A stretch of 64,000 nt of DNA. Origin: a virus. Lineage: Duplodnaviria; Caudoviricetes. The stretch is taken from positions 1 through 64,000 of the IMG/VR virus record IMGVR_UViG_3300030708_002923; one strand, given 5' to 3'. The position numbers and the translations under genes are program-made. How positions within the stretch are numbered: the first letter of the stretch is position 1; the number at the start of each line of letters is the position of its first letter. Below are positions 1-10,551 of the stretch, one piece after another. Below the pieces are notes generated by a model that ran no database searches, was not told where the DNA came from, and saw only the letters and a list, made by a program, of their open reading frames with translations.

Positions 1-3000
1 TTTCGAATACCTGACGAATAAACTCTGTGTTTTCGAGACCACCAGTGTCTGATTGAAAGTAGTATTCACCACCTTTTATTTCTTCGTAAATGTCCAGCGC
101 GTCTATCTCTCCATCATCAGAGTTTTCTACAATAAAACTTTTTAATTTTTGCGCATCAGTGCGATTATCGAAATCATACGCAACATCATCAATGGCCTCA
201 AGCAAGTCGATTACTGAGCCGCTTTCATCAACGATGTCACCGGCCTCGTCGTACTCAAACTCCAGATTAAACGTCGTCCTGCCCTTAGTGCCGGATGGGT
301 CCAAGTAGACGGGGTTCTCGATATTTACATACGTCTTCATGACGCTAAAGTTTTCGTCACCAAGTACTCTCTTTCGGGCGATTGTATCAATCAAAATGTT
401 TTCTACTGATCCAGCAACTTCACCTGTTGCATTAAGTATGTATGAAACATCTTGTTCTTTGATTGCCTTTTCAAGAAATGGTAATGAAACGCCGCCTACT
501 TCATCAATATAGCGTTTTGCAGCATCTAAAACTTCTTGATCAGGGACTTCATCAAGACCGTCAATGCGATCAATCTCATTCTCCACCCTGTTTTTGATGT
601 CAGGGCCTTCTGCGCGAGCATAGTTGAGGTTTACATCGTCAACATTGTCGCTGAAGTAGATGGCCGAGCCAAACGCGCCTTCAGATGAACCTAGACGAAA
701 CTCATTAAAGTCGCCCGATGTTCCATGAAATACGGGCAACACTTCGCCATCTTCATCGACTACCTTGGAGTTACCAAACTTTCTCTTAAAGTATGGAGAC
801 TCTGTACCCATTTCGCGCCACAAACGAGCAGCCTCAACAGCCTCATCTTCAGTCTTGGCACCGGCTGTGGCTACGTCTGTGGCGGCGGGCTTGCGTAGGT
901 CTATTCTGTCAGTGTCAAAAACAACATAAATATCATCAATTTCACCCGCTTTACCGTCATAGACATTCTTGATGATTACGCCATCAAACTGATCCATACC
1001 TCCAACCTCGCGCATCTGTGCGAGTATTTTTTTGTCCATATCGAGCGACCAGGCATCACCCTTGGCATCAAAAACGAACGGCTCTTGAAGGTCAACCTTA
1101 ACCTCGTACAGCTTGCCTGATGGAACAAGCGTATGAAACTTCGGAAAATCGCTGTTGGAGTCGTCATAAACATTAAGAATTGTTTTAGTAACTCGATTAA
1201 GTTCTTGTTCTTCTGGGTATTTACGAGTGTCTATGTAGTTGCCTTCAGCATCCTTTAAAAAACCAACATACTCTGTGTGGCTCGTCCCATGATCAACATT
1301 AATTTTGGCTAAAAGCTGTTCTTTTAAACGCTTCTCGTCACGCAAGAGACCCTCATATTCTTCGCGATACTCAGGCTTCAATACCGGGTCTTTCGGGCGG
1401 TAATACTCCGCTGTTGATGGATTTTTAGAAAAACTAATCCCAGGCAGCAAACCACCCTCTTTCTCGCCTGCACGACTTACATCGAAAGCCGTAATGTCTT
1501 CAGCAGGAGATCCATGATAAACCGTTACACCCTTTGATTCTCGCTCAGTGGCTACGTCTGCGGCGGCGGGTGTGGCGGCGGGGGGCTTGGCTGCGTCGGC
1601 AGCACGACCAGCAGCGCGCGCACCCCTTGCACCCTTATACAGAGCCACGCCGCCCATTCCAAGCGCTCCCAATGCAGCAGCCGCTGACAACTCTTCCTCT
1701 TCTGCTGCGGCGGCTCCTACGGCGATTCCAGGCAATGCAACGCTGTACAGCTTTTGTGGCTTGATGACCCTGTCTCTAACTTTGTCGGTTAGTTCAAAGA
1801 AGGGGAACAATTTTTGAGACGAATAAGGATCTCCGTCAGGGTCCAAATCGATAAACGTATTGGAGCGATGTGCTTTTTTCGCTTTATCAAGCCTGACCTT
1901 GTAATCCTCTGATGTCTCCTTTGGTAAACGTTTGGGCGGAACAAACGACTGCTTCTCAGCAATACTTGGAATCAGGGTGTCGTAGAAGTATTGGTTGCCC
2001 TTAAATACCTTTTCAGCTTGCTCGGCGCCTTCCGCAAAGTCTCCACCTCGTTGTTTCAAGTTTTCGAGACGCTGCAGAAACGCCTCTGGTTTACCAATTA
2101 AATCTATGGCTTCACCGGGAGGCAGTGTCACAAGGGGCGTAATTACGTCTGCACGGCTGAAAGCTACACCGTCATAGCCACCGTCCGCAGCCTCTCGGAA
2201 GATGCGGTTAATCGCAAGTTTAAGCCATTCTTTGGTGTCTTTTAGGGGGGCGTCTGGTACTCTTTTATCACGACCAATCCGAAACTTGCCTTCTCCTCCA
2301 GCAATCCGTCTGCGAGCGATTGCAATTGCGTCGTCAGCGTTATTAACAATCGTACCAACATTTTCATCAGGAACAACATTGGTGACGAAAACGCCGCGAT
2401 CGTCTCGGACTTCAAAATATCCGCCCTTATCGGTTGCGATTAAATTTTTAGAAAATCTAGGTCCGATTTGATATCCACGTGACCGGCCCTTCTGATGCCA
2501 ATCAGACTGGATCTCTTCTACAAACAGAATCTTGCGGCCCCTGTCATCGATACGGTCCTTGGTGCGAATGTGAACCAAAACGTTGGGTATGTCCCTGTGG
2601 TGGGATTCGGTGAAAATATATCTTCCCATTACAGAATCAGGCAGTATATGCTCGCCACTATTTAGAAGACTAATCGCGTAATCTTTTGCTTCGCTCGGAG
2701 AATCGAAAAACGGGACTGAACCGGAGGATCGAGTGCCAAGTCCTCCAGCAGGTTTACCAGGACCAACTATTTCGCCATCAGGACCGAATACTTGATATTT
2801 TTCACGGATGCTTTCTTTTATGCCCGGTAAGTTTTTGTAACGATCACCCGCTTTTACTACTTCATAGCCCTCGGGCAACTCCGTGAATTGCTTCGTCGGA
2901 ACAGTCAGCAAAATCTCTTGGTAGTTGTCGCCGTAAGGAGCCGTGTACTCTTCCCATCTTGGGGAAAGGTCTTTTCGGCCCTTGCTCCAAGCATCATATG

Positions 3001-5086
3001 TTTCCTTATACTCTTTTTGGGACCGAAGATATTCTTGGTACTTTGGCGAAGCCTGAAACTTGCGCAATGCAGCCAACCGGGTTTCGGCCTCGGGCATCTT
3101 GTTAAGAGCCCTTGCTATATCATCAAGGTTTTCGTGCTGATTAAGGACGATACTGCCTGTTCCGTAAGGTGTATCGGAAATTAATTGAACTATGTTTGAG
3201 CGAGCCTCATCAACTAGCTTCTTATACTCAGGATCAGCCAGCTTCGCGTTGATCGTGTTGCGTGCCTCAGTGATCAGTGCAGCATCTTCAGGTGTCCAAC
3301 TAGACCGGGGCCATTTCGTGCTCAAATTCTTTAGTCGTTGTACAATCTCCACCATGTCGCCAGGAACATCATCAAGAATATCAACCGCTTCGATCCAGAC
3401 AACATAATCAGCGTACAGTTTGGTGAAGTGGGTCGAGTTATCCGAAAACCTGTGCATTTGATCGGTAACGTCTTCGCCAGGAGCAAGTATTCTCGCTACA
3501 GCCTTCGCATCGTCATACAGATCATTATAAGCCTTAGTTACCTTAGTGTTGAGATTGTCTAGCCGTCTTGCAACATCTTTTGGAATTTTTTGTGACTCAT
3601 TACTGAGCCTCACCTCGTCGATCTGGACCTTGTTGTCATCCAGATGTTTGATCAACTCGTCCTTGGTGATGCTCTTTTTGCCCGCTGCCTTTGCTTGCTC
3701 CACAAACTCAGCGACCTTGGTGTCAGCAATCTCAGACTTCGTCGCACCACCGCTTCTCAACGTTGAAATAACGGCATCCACGCCCGTCTTGTTTTGAAGC
3801 TTTTCAATAGCAGCCTTTTCTAAAGTAGACTCAAATACCGGGTCTTTTGCTGCAATCGCCTGTTTACCTTGAGTGGGAATAATTTGAAAGGCGTCAAAAA
3901 CTACGTACTCCACCCCATCAACACCAGAACTCCTTACACCATCAAAGCCATCGGCCCTCATAGCAGCCGTTATTACGCTTGGAGGGACAATACCCGACAA
4001 GTCTGTTGTCTTTTCCAGAGCCTCCATCTTCTCATCAACGTACCGTTTTGACGATGACTGAGTTTCTAAATGCTTACGGATTGTGGTCTTTCCTGCTTCA
4101 CCAAAAGACGACTCACCCACGATAAAAGGATTCTTAATATCCAAAAAGGCTTCGACTACTCGACCCCCTTCGCCCGCATATGTAGAGGCTGACGCTTTCG
4201 ATGGAGTAAAGTAAGTGCCCTGACCCTCAGTTTGTTCTGGCTTTGAACCGAGAGTCCTACCCTCCATTCGGGCCGTGTCAAACTCGTCAAACTGCCTCGG
4301 AGTCCCATGATAAACGCGCAAAGGCTCACCAGCATCATCAACGACTGTTGTTTCTTTCAAAGATGCTGCAATCGCCTCTTCTGCCTTCGACAAACTGGCT
4401 GCATCGACCTTCATTGCCGCTTTCAAGCGAGCACCGCTCAATAAATTACCAACCAACGGTGCAGCACCCAACGCAGTAGCTGCAAGCTGAATACCACCAG
4501 CAACACCCGATATACCAGCAGCAGTCAGATGCGCTGCCCTCTGTTCAGGATCTCGCACCGCCAATCGACCAGACTGAACGGCAGAAGTCACATCAGAAGT
4601 TCCTGTAATGTCCACAAGGCTAGAAACATCAGCAACGTTACGAATAGTCTCAGGATCACCCGCCATAACGTCTTCATAAACTTCGCCTGCAAACTCTTTG
4701 TACACCTCACCGCGAGCCTTCGGATCTCGAAGAAACCGCTGCTCTTCTTGCGAGGCCGCTAAACTCAAAGCCTTCATTTGTTCGAGAAACTGCCCCTCCC
4801 AAGGCTCGGGCTTCCGCGTCAAAAATGATTCCGCCTCTTTGCGCTCACGCTCGTCCTCACGCGCATCAATTGCGGCAAACCATCGATCCGACTGATCCTG
4901 ATCCATGCCAGCAGGAACCGTAAACCCACGGTACTCAGGACGTACCGACTCTTCACGAATCTGATTGTATCGATCCGACACAGAGGAATCATATTGTCCA
5001 GGTTCAACCGGCACTTTTAGAGGCTGTCCGACTTCCTTGCGAAAGCCCGACATGCCGCGCATCAATACGTCATCTGATGACGCCAT
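1..5086 (-). CDS. Giant polyvalent protein (>1695 codons, 3' end beyond window) with three ART-PolyVal-like ADP-ribosyltransferase domains and an EEIQSDW domain
   Basis: Not in the ORF track. ATG at 5086 (MASSDDVLMRG) directly follows the stop of 5091..5483. Frame checked at 4312, 2500, 1516, 727 and 25. Motifs: VYHGTPRQFDEF..GQGTYFT..ASTYA..DGFDGV..YVVFD; VYHGSPAEDITAFD..FDGVIIKNVYD..YVVFD; VFHGTSGDFNEF..GSAIYFSD; and VHIRTKDR..LFVEEIQSDWHQKG. Confidence 0.8.
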   Translation of the reverse strand, partial: MASSDDVLMRGMSGFRKEVGQPLKVPVEPGQYDSSVSDRYNQIREESVRPEYRGFTVPAGMDQDQSDRWFAAIDAREDERERKEAESFLTRKPEPWEGQFLEQMKALSLAASQEEQRFLRDPKARGEVYKEFAGEVYEDVMAGDPETIRNVADVSSLVDITGTSDVTSAVQSGRLAVRDPEQRAAHLTAAGISGVAGGIQLAATALGAAPLVGNLLSGARLKAAMKVDAASLSKAEEAIAASLKETTVVDDAGEPLRVYHGTPRQFDEFDTARMEGRTLGSKPEQTEGQGTYFTPSKASASTYAGEGGRVVEAFLDIKNPFIVGESSFGEAGKTTIRKHLETQSSSKRYVDEKMEALEKTTDLSGIVPPSVITAAMRADGFDGVRSSGVDGVEYVVFDAFQIIPTQGKQAIAAKDPVFESTLEKAAIEKLQNKTGVDAVISTLRSGGATKSEIADTKVAEFVEQAKAAGKKSITKDELIKHLDDNKVQIDEVRLSNESQKIPKDVARRLDNLNTKVTKAYNDLYDDAKAVARILAPGEDVTDQMHRFSDNSTHFTKLYADYVVWIEAVDILDDVPGDMVEIVQRLKNLSTKWPRSSWTPEDAALITEARNTINAKLADPEYKKLVDEARSNIVQLISDTPYGTGSIVLNQHENLDDIARALNKMPEAETRLAALRKFQASPKYQEYLRSQKEYKETYDAWSKGRKDLSPRWEEYTAPYGDNYQEILLTVPTKQFTELPEGYEVVKAGDRYKNLPGIKESIREKYQVFGPDGEIVGPGKPAGGLGTRSSGSVPFFDSPSEAKDYAISLLNSGEHILPDSVMGRYIFTESHHRDIPNVLVHIRTKDRIDDRGRKILFVEEIQSDWHQKGRSRGYQIGPRFSKNLIATDKGGYFEVRDDRGVFVTNVVPDENVGTIVNNADDAIAIARRRIAGGEGKFRIGRDKRVPDAPLKDTKEWLKLAINRIFREAADGGYDGVAFSRADVITPLVTLPPGEAIDLIGKPEAFLQRLENLKQRGGDFAEGAEQAEKVFKGNQYFYDTLIPSIAEKQSFVPPKRLPKETSEDYKVRLDKAKKAHRSNTFIDLDPDGDPYSSQKLFPFFELTDKVRDRVIKPQKLYSVALPGIAVGAAAAEEEELSAAAALGALGMGGVALYKGARGARAAGRAADAAKPPAATPAAADVATERESKGVTVYHGSPAEDITAFDVSRAGEKEGGLLPGISFSKNPSTAEYYRPKDPVLKPEYREEYEGLLRDEKRLKEQLLAKINVDHGTSHTEYVGFLKDAEGNYIDTRKYPEEQELNRVTKTILNVYDDSNSDFPKFHTLVPSGKLYEVKVDLQEPFVFDAKGDAWSLDMDKKILAQMREVGGMDQFDGVIIKNVYDGKAGEIDDIYVVFDTDRIDLRKPAATDVATAGAKTEDEAVEAARLWREMGTESPYFKRKFGNSKVVDEDGEVLPVFHGTSGDFNEFRLGSSEGAFGSAIYFSDNVDDVNLNYARAEGPDIKNRVENEIDRIDGLDEVPDQEVLDAAKRYIDEVGGVSLPFLEKAIKEQDVSYILNATGEVAGSVENILIDTIARKRVLGDENFSVMKTYVNIENPVYLDPSGTKGRTTFNLEFEYDEAGDIVDESGSVIDLLEAIDDVAYDFDNRTDAQKLKSFIVENSDDGEIDALDIYEEIKGGEYYFQSDTGGLENTEFIRQVFE

Positions 5087-8066: not shown

Positions 8067-8444
8067 TCACACGGTCCACCCCCACGCGCGCACGGTAGAC
8101 AACGCGCCCCGCATAGCACCACGGGCAACCCCGGCCACGCTACGCGCTACCCCCTGAACACCACGGGCCACGCTACGCGCAACGCGCGCAACGCTACGCG
8201 ATACACGCGCAACAGTAGAACCCACGGGGGGGGTCACAACCTCGGCCACAACTGGAACCTCCACCAAGGGGGCAACCTCGGCCACGCCCACAAGGGGGGC
8301 GGCTATGGTTACCACGCGGGGGGCTCCAGGGATGCGAAGCTGTGGAACCTTCGCCCACGCAACGAACCGACCCGTAGCAGAGCACCGCGCACGCTGGCGG
8401 GGCGCGTCTGCTGAGAGGTTCGAGAATGCGAGTGCGAAAGTCAT
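8067..8444 (-). CDS. Putative leaderless 125-aa protein with VAR-repeat amphipathic C-terminus
   Basis: MTFALAFSNLSADAPRQRARCSATGRF..VARVSRSVARVARSVARGVQGVARSVAGVARG; ATG lies 7 nt after the -10 box. Confidence 0.5.
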   Translation of the reverse strand: MTFALAFSNLSADAPRQRARCSATGRFVAWAKVPQLRIPGAPRVVTIAAPLVGVAEVAPLVEVPVVAEVVTPPVGSTVARVSRSVARVARSVARGVQGVARSVAGVARGAMRGALSTVRAWGWTV

Positions 8445-8450
8445 GACCAT

Positions 8451-8479
8451 ACTATACCCGACCTTGACAGACCTTGCAA
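8451..8479 (-). promoter_or_regulatory. sigma70-type promoter (leftward)
   Basis: TTGCAA-N17-TATAGT. Confidence 0.7.
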
Positions 8480-8508
8480 GGGGGGTGACGTACAAAAAAC
8501 GAAGAAAG

Positions 8509-8601
8509 TTTTTTCTTCAATGATTCTAAGCACTTACAAGATATCATGCATTTTTTTTAAAAAAAGTTTGGTTTTTTTTCTTCAATGATTTCAAGCACTT
8601 A
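8509..8601. repeat. Two 28-bp direct repeats resembling IHF sites
   Basis: TTTTTTCTTCAATGATTCTAAGCACTTA (8509-8536) and TTTTTTCTTCAATGATTTCAAGCACTTA (8574-8601); near the WATCAANNNNTTR consensus with an upstream A/T tract. Confidence 0.55.
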
Positions 8602-8628
8602 GGTGCCCACATTAGAGACGTCCATCGT

Positions 8629-8657
8629 TTGCCATACCTGACAGAGTATGTTCTATT
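8629..8657 (+). promoter_or_regulatory. Possible promoter for the structured RNA
   Basis: TTGCCA-N17-TCTATT; the -10 match is weak. Confidence 0.3.
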
Positions 8658-8663
8658 GTTTGT

Positions 8664-9627
8664 GTGGCGGGGGAAACACCCCGCAAAAAAATCACTACCG
8701 ACCGGGGCGGACACTGCCAACGCCTAAGAACTAAAGCGGTCCCTTGAATCTTTGAAATCACGAATAAGAATAGACGGGCAACCTGGAAACAGATTGACCC
8801 TGGTACACGGCGCGGCAAAGACGAACCCCGCGCAATCGGCCACCGCTGGAATGCAGTAAGTGCGACAGTAGGAGAGACGACCCCCCATTGCATACATCAA
8901 TAGGGGGGCGCCATCCGAAAGGATTGACACCCCGAAGCCCCGAACCCTATGGAATCCGCCACGGCGGGCAGGGTGAGGCGAGCAGGACAGGCCAACCGAT
9001 TGAACCCCGTGTAAGTTACCCCCCGGCACGTTTCACGGACGGCGGGGGAGTGCCAAGACCCCAACACCTGCGGGCGAGCGCCACTAAGGCTTTGAGCAAC
9101 ATCAAGGCCCCGTCTATAAATCCACCGCGACGAATCGCAGCGCTTACAACGTGTCGAGGTGGTAGAAATGCGATGCGGCGAGCAGTAGCGAGGCCGAGGG
9201 ATTAGTAACCCCGAAGACTACTGCAAGGTATCCCCCCACCTTACACGGGGGGACTGTGAGGCCGTGGCCCGCAGTGAACACCGCCCCGGCGAGCGTATCG
9301 CCGCCCCTTTCTACATAGCCGCCGCAAGGGATTACCCTGGATAATACGGCGGGCAATACCGAAAACCCCTACAACGGTCGCACCTTGCTGAGGGCTTCAA
9401 TCCAAGAGGGATAAAAACGCTTCCCTGTTCTATTGATAGGTAGGGGTCGGGCTCGTACCTCGGCCCCGTTTCATTACATAGCCGCCGCCGAGGCTCCCCC
9501 TATGATTCAGAGAGGGGTTGAGCCCCGGCGGGCGGTGGACCTTTCCCGGTTCGCTGTCCTGCGATTCGTCGCTGTTGACATGCCAACTACCGCAAATGTA
9601 GGATAGCCCGGTTTTAACGGGGCTTTT
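8664..9627 (+). ncRNA. Candidate large structured non-coding RNA (~960 nt), family not recognised
   Basis: No credible ORF; at least 7 long-range helices of 8-14 bp, many local hairpins, GNRA loops on the + strand, and a terminator-like 3' hairpin. Confidence 0.7.
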
Positions 9628-9712
9628 CGATGTATTTTGTACCGATAGGGCGGGGGGCCTACCCCTGATTTTTACACCTTGTCCCGCTGTTGGTCCGGTT
9701 GCCATGTCAACA
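9573..9712. repeat. 15-bp inverted repeat made of two GTTG-N6-CAAC palindromes
   Basis: TGTTGACATGCCAAC (9573-9587) versus GTTGCCATGTCAACA (9698-9712), 14/15 complementary. Confidence 0.6.
9605..9627 (+). terminator. Terminator-like hairpin at the 3' end of the RNA
   Basis: AGCCCG..CGGGGCT stem followed by TTTT. Confidence 0.45.
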
Positions 9713-9867
9713 CCAGCACGGAATAAGCCGCTTCAAAGGCTGCATATCACGTAGCCGATGGGTATTTTCATTCGGGGGCTTGAGAGGTGGCGCGGACCAA
9801 CCCCGCATAAAATCCCCGCCATATTCGCCTGTACTGGTACGAATGACCGAACCTTACCCCCCTTGTA

Positions 9868-10100
9868 CCCTAACCTCTGCCCTAACCTATCGACGAGGTT
9901 AGGGCACCCGATAGCCCGCCTTCAAGGTGCCTTATCGGTTGATGCCCTAACCTACCCTAACCTCTGGCCCAACATTTTGAACCTCTCGGATTTTCTCGAC
10001 TGTCTCGTTCTTCTCTCTCTACTATATTGTATTACCTACCTACCTATTCTGTCTAATAGGTTAGGGTAGGTTAGGGCAATAGAGAATAAACGAGGTTCAA
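9868..10100. repeat. Iteron-like CCCTAACCT/AGGTTAGGG cluster with nested inverted repeats
   Basis: 7 copies of the 9-mer; perfect 21-bp inverted repeat 9943-9963/10058-10078; 11-bp hairpin 9878-9888/9896-9906; TTGAACCTC/GAGGTTCAA 9977-9985/10092-10100. Confidence 0.75.
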
Positions 10101-10156
10101 CCGGGCTTTTCAACCTGCCCCAACGTAGGGGCACCACTGCCCCAACGGGTAGGCAC

Positions 10157-10185
10157 TTGACACCCTTTACCCCTTCCCTTAGACT
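10157..10185 (+). promoter_or_regulatory. sigma70-type early promoter
   Basis: TTGACA-N17-TAGACT, 37 nt before the first early ATG. Confidence 0.75.
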
Positions 10186-10221: not shown

Positions 10222-10551
10222 ATGCCTGTACTCAAACGATACAAGCCGCACGGCGGCTATCCCTTGGCGCCTGGAGCCGGATGGGCGACTGTCCGAAAAC
10301 TGACCAACAGAGAGGCGGTCATGATTCTGAATGCCTCCGAGACTATGGCTGAGCGTGGCCCTGATGGATTGCGCGACACCATCGCGGGCAAGTGCTTTGT
10401 AGCTTTGAATCGATTCGGTCGCCCTAAAGCTGGCGAGTGGAACCAACCCTGTCCCGCCGGTACTCGTGCCATCTACCACCACGGTGGTGGTGGTGGCGTG
10501 TGGTCCGGTTTCTATATCATCGAAAAACTAAAAACCCTGGAGCAATCATGA
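10222..10551 (+). CDS. Early hypothetical protein
   Basis: CTGGAG RBS; ATGA-coupled to the next gene. Confidence 0.65.
   Translation: MPVLKRYKPHGGYPLAPGAGWATVRKLTNREAVMILNASETMAERGPDGLRDTIAGKCFVALNRFGRPKAGEWNQPCPAGTRAIYHHGGGGGVWSGFYIIEKLKTLEQS

What the first reader, a model, noticed from the sequence alone, without database searches (positions are those of the whole stretch)
8664..9627. Candidate ~960-nt ornate, pseudoknotted non-coding RNA in a phage control region
Seen in sequence: no credible ORF, but dense complementarity. Long-range helices are 8702-8710/9281-9289 (CCGGGGCGG) plus 8712-8717/9271-9276; 8958-8965/9261-9268; 9005-9015/9240-9250 (11 bp); 8770-8778/9109-9117; 8982-8990/9554-9562; 9127-9140/9559-9572 (14 bp); 9121-9128/9532-9539; and 8860-8866/9376-9382. 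Several cross each other (pseudoknots). Local hairpins carry GNRA loops only on the + strand (CTG-GAAA-CAG at 8783, ATCC-GAAA-GGAT at 8913-8924, CC-GCAA-GG at 9322), and a terminator-like hairpin ends it. Established: giant phage-associated RNAs such as GOLLD and ROOL are of similar size and pseudoknot-rich. I could not match hallmark motifs of RNase P, tmRNA or group I/II introns. Inference: a new or highly diverged large ncRNA class.
Basis: partly seen in the sequence, partly recalled or inferred. Interest (0 to 1): 0.92.

Follow-up and report, generated by a model that had tools for sequence, protein, structure and literature searches.

The report
New large structured RNA in marine phages
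The roughly 0.9-kb gene-free stretch is a real, evolutionarily conserved, intricately folded non-coding RNA gene found in a lineage of uncultured marine phages. It matches no catalogued RNA family, so it looks like a new class of large phage RNA whose job is still unknown.

Summary
Window 8664 to about 9545 (+ strand, tail to 9627/9675) has no ORF and no coding signature. It lies at a fixed place between divergent operons of a 73-kb uncultured marine phage.

I collected homologous stretches from about 12 lineages, all in marine viral or metagenome contigs. They share islands of sequence and, above all, base pairs kept by compensatory changes:
- **3' hairpin (20 sequences):** 96.8% paired, 46 double-changed cells against 12.9 in shuffles.
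- **Core (10 sequences):** 98 pairs, 93.9% paired, 20 covarying pairs against 11.3.
- **Long-range helices:** 8770-8778/9109-9117 and 8804-8810/9007-9013 are kept.

Two hairpins have freely varying stems but invariant, mutually complementary loops: CACG (8960-8963) and CGUG (9263-9266). One lineage has CUCG and CGAG instead, which fits a kissing-loop pseudoknot.

Half of the lineages, but not the window, carry a hammerhead-like ribozyme in the hypervariable linker (window 9311-9471).

Rfam 15 gives no family hit. I found no tRNA or tmRNA, and no paper describing this RNA.

**Verdict:** a genuine new family of large structured phage RNA. Its function is unknown, and expression could not be tested.

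The parts
8629..8657 (+). Promoter-like element P1: -35 TTGCCA (8629-8634), a 17-nt spacer, and -10 TCTATT (8652-8657). The start site is inferred at about 8663-8666.
   Evidence: The block TTGCCATACCTG is unique in the window. It is conserved with the same spacing in distant relatives (alignments). The consensus promoter scan did not call it, so it is inferred.
8667..8684 (+). 5' hairpin P1: GCGGGG / CCCCGC with loop GAAACA.
   Evidence: Every lineage has a GC-rich hairpin here with a different stem, for example GACGGG/CCCGUC, UGGCA/UGCCA and GGCGGG/CCCGCC. This was read by eye and not formally counted.
8690..8745 (+). Lineage-specific peripheral insertion.
   Evidence: It is replaced by unrelated sequence in L004 and absent in lineages B to G.
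8749..8759 (+). Conserved motif UCUUUGAAAUC. Bases 8749-8753 may pair with 9213-9217 (GAAGA).
   Evidence: The motif UCUUU(G/C/U)A(A/C)AUC is present in nearly all lineages. The helix is 98% paired in 10 sequences but shows no covariation (helix 1), and it is not kept in lineage B.
8770..8778 (+). 5' strand of the long-range helix that closes the roughly 340-nt core domain. It pairs with 9109-9117.
   Evidence: 100% paired in family A with a G-C to A-U compensatory change. In 10 sequences it is 98.9% paired, with AU:6 and GC:4 at one pair (helix 2).
8779..8799 (+). GNRA hairpin: GGCAA-CUG-GAAA-CAG-UUG-CC.
   Evidence: CUG/CAG changes to CCG/CGG in L004 and L029, and the hairpin is expanded in L048 and L244.
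8804..8810 (+). 5' strand of the second long-range helix. It pairs with 9007-9013.
   Evidence: UACACGG/CCGUGUA becomes CAAGCGG/CCGUUUG in L004 and L029. Three pairs show double changes (helix 4). It is broken in L237 and L240, where the alignment is doubtful.
8940..8978 (+). Hairpin domain: an outer helix (about 8943-8947 / 8972-8976) around hairpin 8955-8959/8964-8968, which carries the invariant loop CACG (8960-8963).
   Evidence: The outer helix has 6 covarying pairs in family A. The inner stem has at least 9 variants in 22 sequences, with 13 double-changed cells against 2.7 in shuffles. The loop is invariant except in lineage E.
9007..9013 (+). 3' strand of the helix with 8804-8810.
9020..9048 (+). 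Hairpin: CCCCCCGGCACG-UUUCA-CGGACGGCGGGGG.
   Evidence: 12 pairs, 99% paired, 2 of them covarying (helix 10).
9109..9117 (+). 3' strand of the helix with 8770-8778.
9134..9174 (+). Variable-size hairpin domain closed by AUCGCA/UGCGAU.
   Evidence: The closing helix covaries (C-G to G-C in 5 of 10 sequences). The interior differs in length between close relatives (helix 12).
9225..9309 (+). 3' sub-domain closed by AAGG/CCUU (9225-9228 / 9306-9309). It holds hairpin 9232-9252, hairpin 9254-9274 with the invariant loop CGUG (9263-9266), and the near-invariant hairpin CGGCGA/UCGCCG (9287-9292 / 9298-9303).
   Evidence: See, helices 16-19; helix 18 has 5 covarying pairs. The stems around CGUG have at least 8 variants. 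GGCGA/UCGCC becomes GGUGA/UCACC in L244, L240 and L260.
8960..8963 (+). Loop CACG, the proposed kissing partner of CGUG at 9263-9266. The contact crosses the 8770/9117 helix, so it forms a pseudoknot.
   Evidence: Both loops are invariant in all lineages except E. There, three independent assemblies have CUCG and CGAG, which again are complementary.
9311..9471 (+). Hypervariable linker. It includes a partial duplicate of the start of the 3' module (9312-9338 against 9475-9501).
   Evidence: It differs even between relatives about 90% identical elsewhere. The duplicate is repeat D8. No Rfam family matches. In other lineages this place holds a hammerhead-like motif or a conserved module of about 110 nt.
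9475..9541 (+). 3' module: the conserved leader ACAUAGCC followed by a 19-bp interrupted hairpin.
   Evidence: In 20 sequences of about 10 lineages it is 96.8% paired, with 11 pairs and 46 cells changed on both sides (shuffles 12.9 +/- 2.7, 0 of 500 as high). Many pairs are G-U.
9606..9675 (+). Two hairpins followed by U runs (9606-9627 and 9651-9667): candidate 3' ends.
   Evidence: 9651-9667 is called terminator-like. 9606-9627 has only 4 U and is preceded by a promoter-like site, TTGACA-18-TAGGAT, at 9575-9604. The true 3' end is not determined.

Best explanation
The interval encodes a member of a previously uncatalogued family of large (about 0.8-1.1 kb) structured non-coding RNAs. It is read from the + strand and appears to be the first rightward (early) transcription unit of a lineage of uncultured marine ~73-kb phages.

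Shown:
- The sequence is non-coding.
- It sits at a fixed genomic place in all relatives.
- At least 19 core helices plus a 19-bp 3' hairpin are maintained by compensatory changes.
- Two long-range helices close a multi-helix core.
- Two hairpin loops (CACG and CGUG) are invariant and change together in one lineage.

Inferred:
- A host-type promoter (8629-8657) starts the RNA near 8664.
- The RNA folds into a compact particle whose CACG and CGUG loops kiss, either within one molecule or between copies.
- The RNA acts in trans as a folded RNA or RNP early in infection, rather than as an antisense or coding element.
- A hypervariable linker (9311-9471) separates the core from the conserved 3' hairpin module. 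In about half of the lineages this linker carries a type III hammerhead-like ribozyme that would cut the transcript in two. The window's copy lacks it, so it would stay in one piece.

The biochemical function is not known.
For: - **Non-coding:** stops in all frames; variable columns fall 50/38/48 over codon phases, and indels are 14, 19, 13, 8, 1 nt long.
- **Family:** about 12 lineages, recovered by DNA motif and through the flanking 321-aa gene, all from marine samples. The window's own genome holds one copy.
- **Structure, 3' module:** 96.8% paired, 46 double-changed cells against 12.9 in shuffles.
- **Structure, core consensus:** 98 pairs, 93.9% paired, 20 covarying pairs against 11.3 +/- 2.1 in shuffles and 3-5 when partners are slid.
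- **Structure, independent test:** the window's own MFE fold, which does not depend on the alignment, has 30 covarying pairs against 14.8 +/- 2.7.
- **Strand:** the + strand fold is 83% conserved against 70% for the - strand fold. Many conserved pairs are G-U. The hammerhead in relatives lies on the same strand.
- **Kissing loops:**
- **Hammerhead-like motif in relatives:** RF00008 scores 32.5 bits, E = 6.6e-6, over the full model. Stems I and III are 100% and 94% paired with 5 covarying pairs.
- **No known family:**
Against: - The transcript, its ends and its abundance are therefore inferred.
- The promoter is weak by E. coli consensus and was not called by the scan.
- A promoter-like site lies inside the 3' tail (9575-9604), so the RNA may end earlier or read through.
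- The kissing contact rests on one evolutionary event.
- The core consensus came from RNAalifold on the same alignment it was tested on, which is partly circular.
- Lineages B to G differ so much in the 5' half that a common full-length structure was not derived.
- Nothing found here points to a function.
Confidence: 0.85

Rival explanations
1. It is not a separate RNA gene but the long structured 5' leader of the early operon. It would act in cis, for example through processive antitermination, control of transcript stability, or timing of early-gene expression. In some lineages the hammerhead would detach it from the mRNA.
For: - It lies directly upstream of the + strand early genes.
- The hairpin at 9606-9627 is a weak terminator.
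- A hammerhead between the core and the downstream sequence is what one would expect if a leader has to be cut from a message.
Against: - About 800 nt separate the RNA from the first early ORF at 10437. That stretch holds a better terminator-like site (9651-9667), three promoter-like sites (9575-9604 and 10157-10185; about 9704-9735 read by eye from the alignment) and a repeat cluster.
- Known cis-acting antitermination RNAs are ten times smaller.
- The strong conservation of unpaired nucleotides and of loop-loop contacts is more typical of a trans-acting folded RNA.
Confidence: 0.12
2. The conservation reflects a DNA-level element between divergent operons, such as a replication origin, a packaging site or protein-binding sites, and not an RNA.
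For: - It is intergenic between divergent gene blocks.
- Repeats and iteron-like 9-mers lie nearby at 9866-10100.
- A conserved 21-bp motif at 8610-8630 is repeated four times in relative L094.
Against: - Hairpin stems vary freely while pairing is kept.
- Many conserved G-U pairs would be A-C mismatches on the other strand.
- Loop sequences are conserved in a strand-specific way.
- A hammerhead motif is embedded on the same strand in relatives.
- The repeats lie outside the conserved structured part.
Confidence: 0.03

Closest known systems
GOLLD RNA (large ornate RNA of phages and prophages, in Rfam)
   Same: - It is phage-encoded, more than 800 nt long, and built of many helices with conserved loops.
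- It has a conserved region joined to a more variable one by a linker that accepts insertions.
- Its function is unknown.
- Covariation-detected kissing loops in GOLLD turned out to be bridges between RNA copies in a nanocage (bioRxiv 10.1101/2024.12.08.627333, read).
   Different: - The Rfam model gives no match, even at E = 10.
- This phage has no tRNA genes nearby or anywhere in the window.
- The position differs: here it is the first early unit between divergent operons.
- The hammerhead-bearing linker is not a GOLLD feature, to my knowledge.
ROOL RNA (large ornate RNA of phages and prophages, in Rfam)
   Same: It is a large phage-associated structured RNA of unknown function. A conserved kissing loop, first seen by covariation, mediates multimer assembly.
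   Different: There is no model match. ROOL is about 580 nt, occurs in rumen and Firmicutes contexts, and is often near tRNAs. The sequence and helix order are unrelated.
Hammerhead ribozyme type III (Rfam RF00008)
   Same: In lineages C, D, E and G the linker holds a GUC site, stem I, CUGANGA, stem II, GAAAC and stem III in type III order. Every core nucleotide is conserved, only N7 varies, and the stems covary.
   Different: - It is absent from the window's own RNA.
- Relatives score 32.5 bits, below the gathering score of 48.5.
- They carry 1 extra nucleotide, or in lineage D a 14-nt hairpin, between A9 and stem II.
- Cleavage activity is untested.
OLE RNA
   Same: It is a large (about 600 nt), highly conserved multi-helix ncRNA that works as an RNP and dimerises.
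   Different: OLE is bacterial (Bacillota), not phage-borne. It has partner-protein genes next to it, and no model match was found here.

Membership tests
GOLLD / ROOL / OLE / HEARO / raiA (Rfam large ncRNAs) | A match to the family covariance model at or near its gathering score. | tested here: not met
   The whole window at gathering threshold gave 0 hits. Window 8300-10100 at E up to 10 gave only chance-level small-family hits. Eleven related loci gave 0 hits.
GOLLD / ROOL | Frequent adjacency to tRNA genes in phages and prophages. | tested here: not met
   ARAGORN finds no tRNA or tmRNA in the 64-kb window.
Group I / group II introns, RNase P RNA, tmRNA | A covariance-model match; for tmRNA, a tRNA-like domain and a tag reading frame. 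| tested here: not met
   No Rfam hit. ARAGORN finds no tmRNA.
Hammerhead ribozyme type III (in the window itself) | The CUGANGA and GAAA core, with three stems around an NUH site. | tested here: not met
   There is no CUGANGA anywhere in the window's RNA. A short-segment Rfam scan of 9305-9480 found no ribozyme.
Hammerhead ribozyme type III (in relatives L094, L092, L091, L234, L248, L249, L251-253, L256) | A conserved catalytic core, three covarying stems, and a score at or above the Rfam gathering threshold. | tested here: inconclusive
   The core is fully conserved, and stems I and III covary. The score is 32.5 bits against a gathering score of 48.5, with an insertion after A9. Self-cleavage was not tested.
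Protein-coding gene (standard or recoded) | A conserved open frame, an excess of third-position variation, and indels in multiples of three. | tested here: not met
   TAA, TAG and TGA occur in all six frames. Phase counts are 50/38/48 and indels are 14, 19, 13, 8, 1 nt long. The longest ORFs have no Pfam hit.
Structured ncRNA (generic) | Base pairs maintained by compensatory substitutions beyond controls. | tested here: met
Structured ncRNA (generic) | A transcript of the expected strand and size. | not testable with these tools

The most novel reading that the evidence does not exclude
This is a new class of large 'ornate' phage RNA. Its invariant CACG and CGUG loops would bridge separate copies into a homo-oligomeric RNA assembly, as was found for ROOL and GOLLD. 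Alternatively, its conserved unpaired core could be a new catalytic or ligand-binding centre. Either way, it would be deployed as the very first transcript of infection to take over or disarm the host, with lineage-specific self-cleaving ribozymes trimming it.
Probability: 0.25. Interest if true: 0.92.

Novelty: categorically new. Interest (0 to 1): 0.82.

Why it matters
Bacterial and phage RNAs longer than about 500 nt with conserved, complex folds are very rare: rRNAs, RNase P, group I and II introns, OLE, GOLLD, ROOL, HEARO. Each one has revealed unusual biochemistry, most recently RNA-only nanocages.

A new family of 0.8-1.1 kb would add a fresh and well-defined target for structure and function work. 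Its features are:
- a covariation-supported core;
- a supported loop-loop pseudoknot;
- a modular linker that exchanges ribozyme-like cassettes;
- a fixed 'first transcript' position in abundant uncultured marine phages.

It would also show that phages use large RNAs at the onset of infection. The family gives natural hammerhead variants with an insertion next to A9.

It carries a practical warning too. Rfam scans of kilobase stretches missed the hammerhead that a 91-nt scan found.

Tried and rejected
- **Recoding or a hidden gene:** rejected.
- **Cultured relatives:** blastn of the region and tblastn of neighbouring proteins against GenBank phages gave nothing, or only remote tail-protein hits.
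- **Bacterial genomes:** the motif scan returned only chance GC-rich matches, none confirmed by nhmmer. That scan was wasted, and no prophage or host was found.
- **Metagenome motif scan:** about 70 of the 85 hits were chance matches in GC-rich coding DNA.
- **A second viral-contig motif scan** added no new lineage.
- **The conserved ~110-nt module of lineages A and B, and the window's linker:** checked for known ribozymes (twister, pistol, hatchet, HDV-like). There was no credible hit; the best was 13 bits, on the wrong strand.
- **The 11-nt segment 8932-8942,** which another note says is complementary to early-gene hairpins: it lies in a stretch deleted in L033, L022 and L048 and changed in L004 and L029, so it is not a conserved feature.
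- **One full-length alignment of all lineages** with MAFFT and RNAalifold was too noisy. I used anchored blocks instead.
- **Expression data** could not be obtained.
- **My last script** failed on a missing motif. I redid the analysis with DNA alignment, fold_alignment and the count of structure pairs.
- **Literature searches** found no description of this RNA. The library is incomplete, so prior publication cannot be excluded.

Full report
**Setting.** The window is bases 1-64000 of a 73,021-bp IMG/VR virus record rated complete. Genes left of 8444 run on the - strand: RusA, a 321-aa protein, and an ART-PolyVal giant protein. Genes right of 10437 run on the + strand. The finding therefore lies in a ~2-kb gene-free gap between divergent operons. 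No cultured phage in GenBank resembles the region or its neighbours.

**Checking the observation.**
- TAA, TAG and TGA interrupt all six frames between 8500 and 10430, so no stop-codon recoding opens a gene.
- The longest local ORFs have no Pfam or PHROG hit.
- In relatives, indels of 14, 19, 13, 8 and 1 nt break the frame of the longest + strand ORF (8888-9205), and variable columns show no third-position excess: 50/38/48.
- The + strand folds at -375.5 kcal/mol, z = -3.3 against dinucleotide shuffles. The - strand gives z = -1.7.
- So the raw observation holds. A single sequence, however, cannot tell which helices are real.

**Finding relatives.**
- The flanking 321-aa protein led to one related viral contig. 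There the intergenic DNA shares only islands with the window.
- An invariant island (CCCCGGCGAGCG..UCGCCGCCCC) used as a pattern found two more viral contigs and ten marine metagenome contigs. The other metagenome hits were chance GC-rich matches.
- A profile of the 321-aa protein gave eight viral loci (three from contigs already held) and 29 protein clusters, all from marine samples. Their contigs supplied many further copies.
- In total I have about 12 lineages, labelled A1-A4 and B to G. Pairwise similarity outside the islands is often undetectable by blastn.
- In every case the element sits between two features. One is a small - strand gene with a conserved Arg-rich N-terminus (window 8067-8444). 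The other is the + strand early genes.
- The own genome has one copy.
- A pattern scan of bacterial genomes gave only chance hits.

**Evidence for RNA structure.**
1. *The 3' module (window 9475-9541).* It aligns without structural guidance in 20 sequences. Its 19-bp interrupted hairpin is 96.8% paired. Eleven pairs and 46 cells are changed on both sides, against 12.9 +/- 2.7 cells in shuffles (0 of 500 as high). Slid controls reach only 41-57% pairing.
2. *The window's own minimum-energy fold.* It owes nothing to the alignment. Projected on seven family-A sequences, it has 83% of cells paired and 30 pairs with double changes. Shuffles give 14.8 +/- 2.7, and slid controls give 5-11. The - strand fold is only 70% conserved.
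3. *RNAalifold consensus of the core (8745-9312) on ten sequences of six lineages.* It has 98 pairs in 19 helices and is 93.9% paired. Twenty pairs covary, against 11.3 +/- 2.1 in shuffles (0 of 500 as high) and 3-5 when partners are slid. This consensus was derived from the same alignment, so the shuffle test is somewhat favourable to it.
4. *G-U pairs.* Conserved G-U pairs are frequent. On the other strand they would be A-C mismatches, which fixes the + strand.

**Architecture, in window coordinates.**
- A promoter-like block has -35 TTGCCA (8629-8634), 17 nt, then TCTATT (8652-8657). It is conserved in spacing across lineages.
- It precedes a 5' hairpin (8667-8684) whose stem differs in every lineage.
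- A window-lineage insertion (8690-8745) follows. It is replaced in L004 and absent elsewhere.
- The near-universal motif UCUUUGAMAUC comes next (8749-8759).
- Helix 8770-8778/9109-9117 closes a domain of about 340 nt.
  - In family A it is 100% paired with a G-C to A-U change.
  - In ten sequences it is 98.9% paired.
- Helix 8804-8810/9007-9013 has three covarying pairs.
- Inside the domain lie a GNRA hairpin (8779-8799), a hairpin with a conserved GACGAAC loop, a variable-length C/G hairpin, the CACG hairpin domain (8940-8978) and hairpin 9020-9048.
- After a size-variable domain (9134-9174) comes a 3' sub-domain closed by AAGG/CCUU (9225-9228 / 9306-9309). It has three hairpins. One carries the loop CGUG (9263-9266). 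Another is the near-invariant CGGCGA/UCGCCG, which shows GGUGA/UCACC in L244, L240 and L260.
- Then follow the hypervariable linker (9311-9471), the 3' module, and hairpins with U runs at 9606-9627 and 9651-9667.

**The loop-loop contact.**
- The hairpin at 8955-8968 has at least nine different stems in 22 sequences. The hairpin at 9260-9269 has at least eight. Both stems covary significantly.
- Their tetraloops are nevertheless invariant, CACG and CGUG, and they are complementary to each other.
- Lineage E is the only exception. It is known from three separate assemblies that are 98.4-99.6% identical, and it has CUCG and CGAG, which are complementary again.
- This coordinated A-to-U and U-to-A change in loops about 300-400 nt apart supports base pairing between them.
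- The contact crosses the 8770/9117 helix, so it is a pseudoknot in the formal sense.
- The data cannot say whether it forms within one molecule or between copies. In ROOL and GOLLD, kissing loops first seen by covariation proved to be intermolecular bridges (bioRxiv 10.1101/2024.12.08.627333).
- It rests on one evolutionary event.

**The linker and the hammerhead.**
- The stretch 9311-9471 differs even between relatives about 90% identical elsewhere. In the window it contains a partial duplicate of the start of the 3' module.
- In lineages C, D, E and G the same place holds a type III hammerhead-like motif.
  - Its parts are a GUC site, stem I, CUGANGA, stem II, GAAAC and stem III.
  - Stem I occurs as CGGUGC/GCACCG, CGGGUC/GACCCG, CAGUGC/GCACUG and CGGCGC/GCGCCG.
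  - Only the N7 core position varies.
- Stems I and III are 100% and 94% paired, with five covarying pairs.
- Rfam's Hammerhead_3 model matches over its full length at 32.5 bits, E = 6.6e-6 in a 91-nt scan, below the gathering score of 48.5.
- The motif has one extra nucleotide, or in lineage D a 14-nt GAAA hairpin, after A9. Activity needs a test.
- The same motif was missed when 1.1 kb was scanned, which shows that the filters can hide short families.
- For that reason I rescanned the window's linker and the conserved ~110-nt module of lineages A and B as short pieces. No family appeared.
- A 159-nt linker module is 95% identical between L033 (lineage A1) and L234 (lineage E), although their cores are only distantly alike. 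Linker cassettes therefore appear to move between lineages.
- The window's RNA has no hammerhead core.

**Comparison with known families.**
- Rfam 15 gives no hit at gathering threshold in the window or in eleven related loci. Only chance-level hits appear at E up to 10.
- ARAGORN finds no tRNA or tmRNA.
- The RNA resembles GOLLD and ROOL in several ways. It is phage-borne and large, with conserved loops on variable stems, a modular linker, a covariation-supported kissing loop and an unknown function.
- It nevertheless fails their membership tests and lacks their tRNA neighbourhood.
- Three literature searches found no description of it. The library is incomplete.

**What it most likely does.**
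- I regard as shown that this is a conserved, strand-specific, structured non-coding RNA gene.
- I infer, with less confidence, that it is an independent early transcript made by host RNA polymerase, and that it works as a folded particle or RNP.
- Half of its relatives would process the RNA with a hammerhead. A cis-acting leader role is the main rival (about 0.12). A DNA-level element is unlikely (about 0.03).
- Nothing here reveals the biochemical function.
- The neighbouring small Arg-rich protein and the virion-borne ADP-ribosyltransferase protein are leads only.

**Verdict.** Expression, the RNA ends, hammerhead activity and any multimer formation remain to be tested.

Noticed in passing
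L094:3195-3255 (- strand); also L092, L091, L234, L248, L249, L251-253, L256 (coordinates): A type III hammerhead-like ribozyme motif is embedded in the linker of the homologous RNA in four to five lineages. It has 1 nt, or a 14-nt GAAA hairpin, inserted after A9. It scores below the Rfam gathering threshold, but its core is fully conserved and its stems covary.
   Followed up: yes
L094:2900-4000 compared with L094:3185-3275: The Rfam 'evalue' scan of 1.1 kb reported no hammerhead. The 91-nt scan of the same DNA gave 32.5 bits. Filter loss can hide short families in kilobase scans.
   Followed up: yes
window 8067-8444 (- strand): A real small gene is divergent from the RNA. Its N-terminus is conserved in all lineages (MTFALAFSxLxADAPRQRARCxxTGRFVAWxKVPQLRVPGAPRVV, Arg-rich), and a low-complexity V/A/R repeat tail follows. 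It has no Pfam or PHROG family. It could be a nucleic-acid-binding regulator or a partner of the RNA.
   Followed up: partly
window 8509-8536, 8574-8601 and 8610-8630: There are two copies of a 28-nt AT-rich element (TTTTTTCTTCAATGATTYYAAGCACTTA). Next to them lies a 21-bp motif (CATTAGAGACGTCCATCGTTT) that is conserved in relatives and repeated four times in the opposite orientation in L094. These are likely promoter or operator elements of the divergent control region.
   Followed up: partly
window 9575-9604, about 9704-9775, 10157-10185: Further sigma-70-like promoter matches lie downstream of the RNA, together with a conserved non-coding block (..TTGAACGCC..ATATCRCGTRGCCGATGG..) shared with distant lineages. 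They suggest several early promoters after the RNA gene.
   Followed up: no
window 9866-10112: This is a cluster of CCCTAACCT-type repeats and inverted copies (repeat families D6, D10, D17), plus three copies of a hairpin element like the one at 9602-9629 (D2, D4). It may be an origin or a protein-binding array.
   Followed up: no
L033 and L234 linker (about 159 nt): A linker module is 95% identical between lineages whose RNA cores are only distantly alike (blastn finds only short matching segments), which indicates horizontal exchange of linker cassettes. A separate ~110-nt module (CCCCCGGCGCAUGUUCGCCGG...CAUAUCGGGGGGAAGCC) is conserved more strongly than the core in lineages A and B, but it is missing from the window and from L004.
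   Followed up: partly
window 2-5086 (- strand): A protein of more than 1695 aa carries ART-PolyVal ADP-ribosyltransferase domains, probably a virion-injected polyvalent protein. Related contigs have it at the same place.
   Followed up: no
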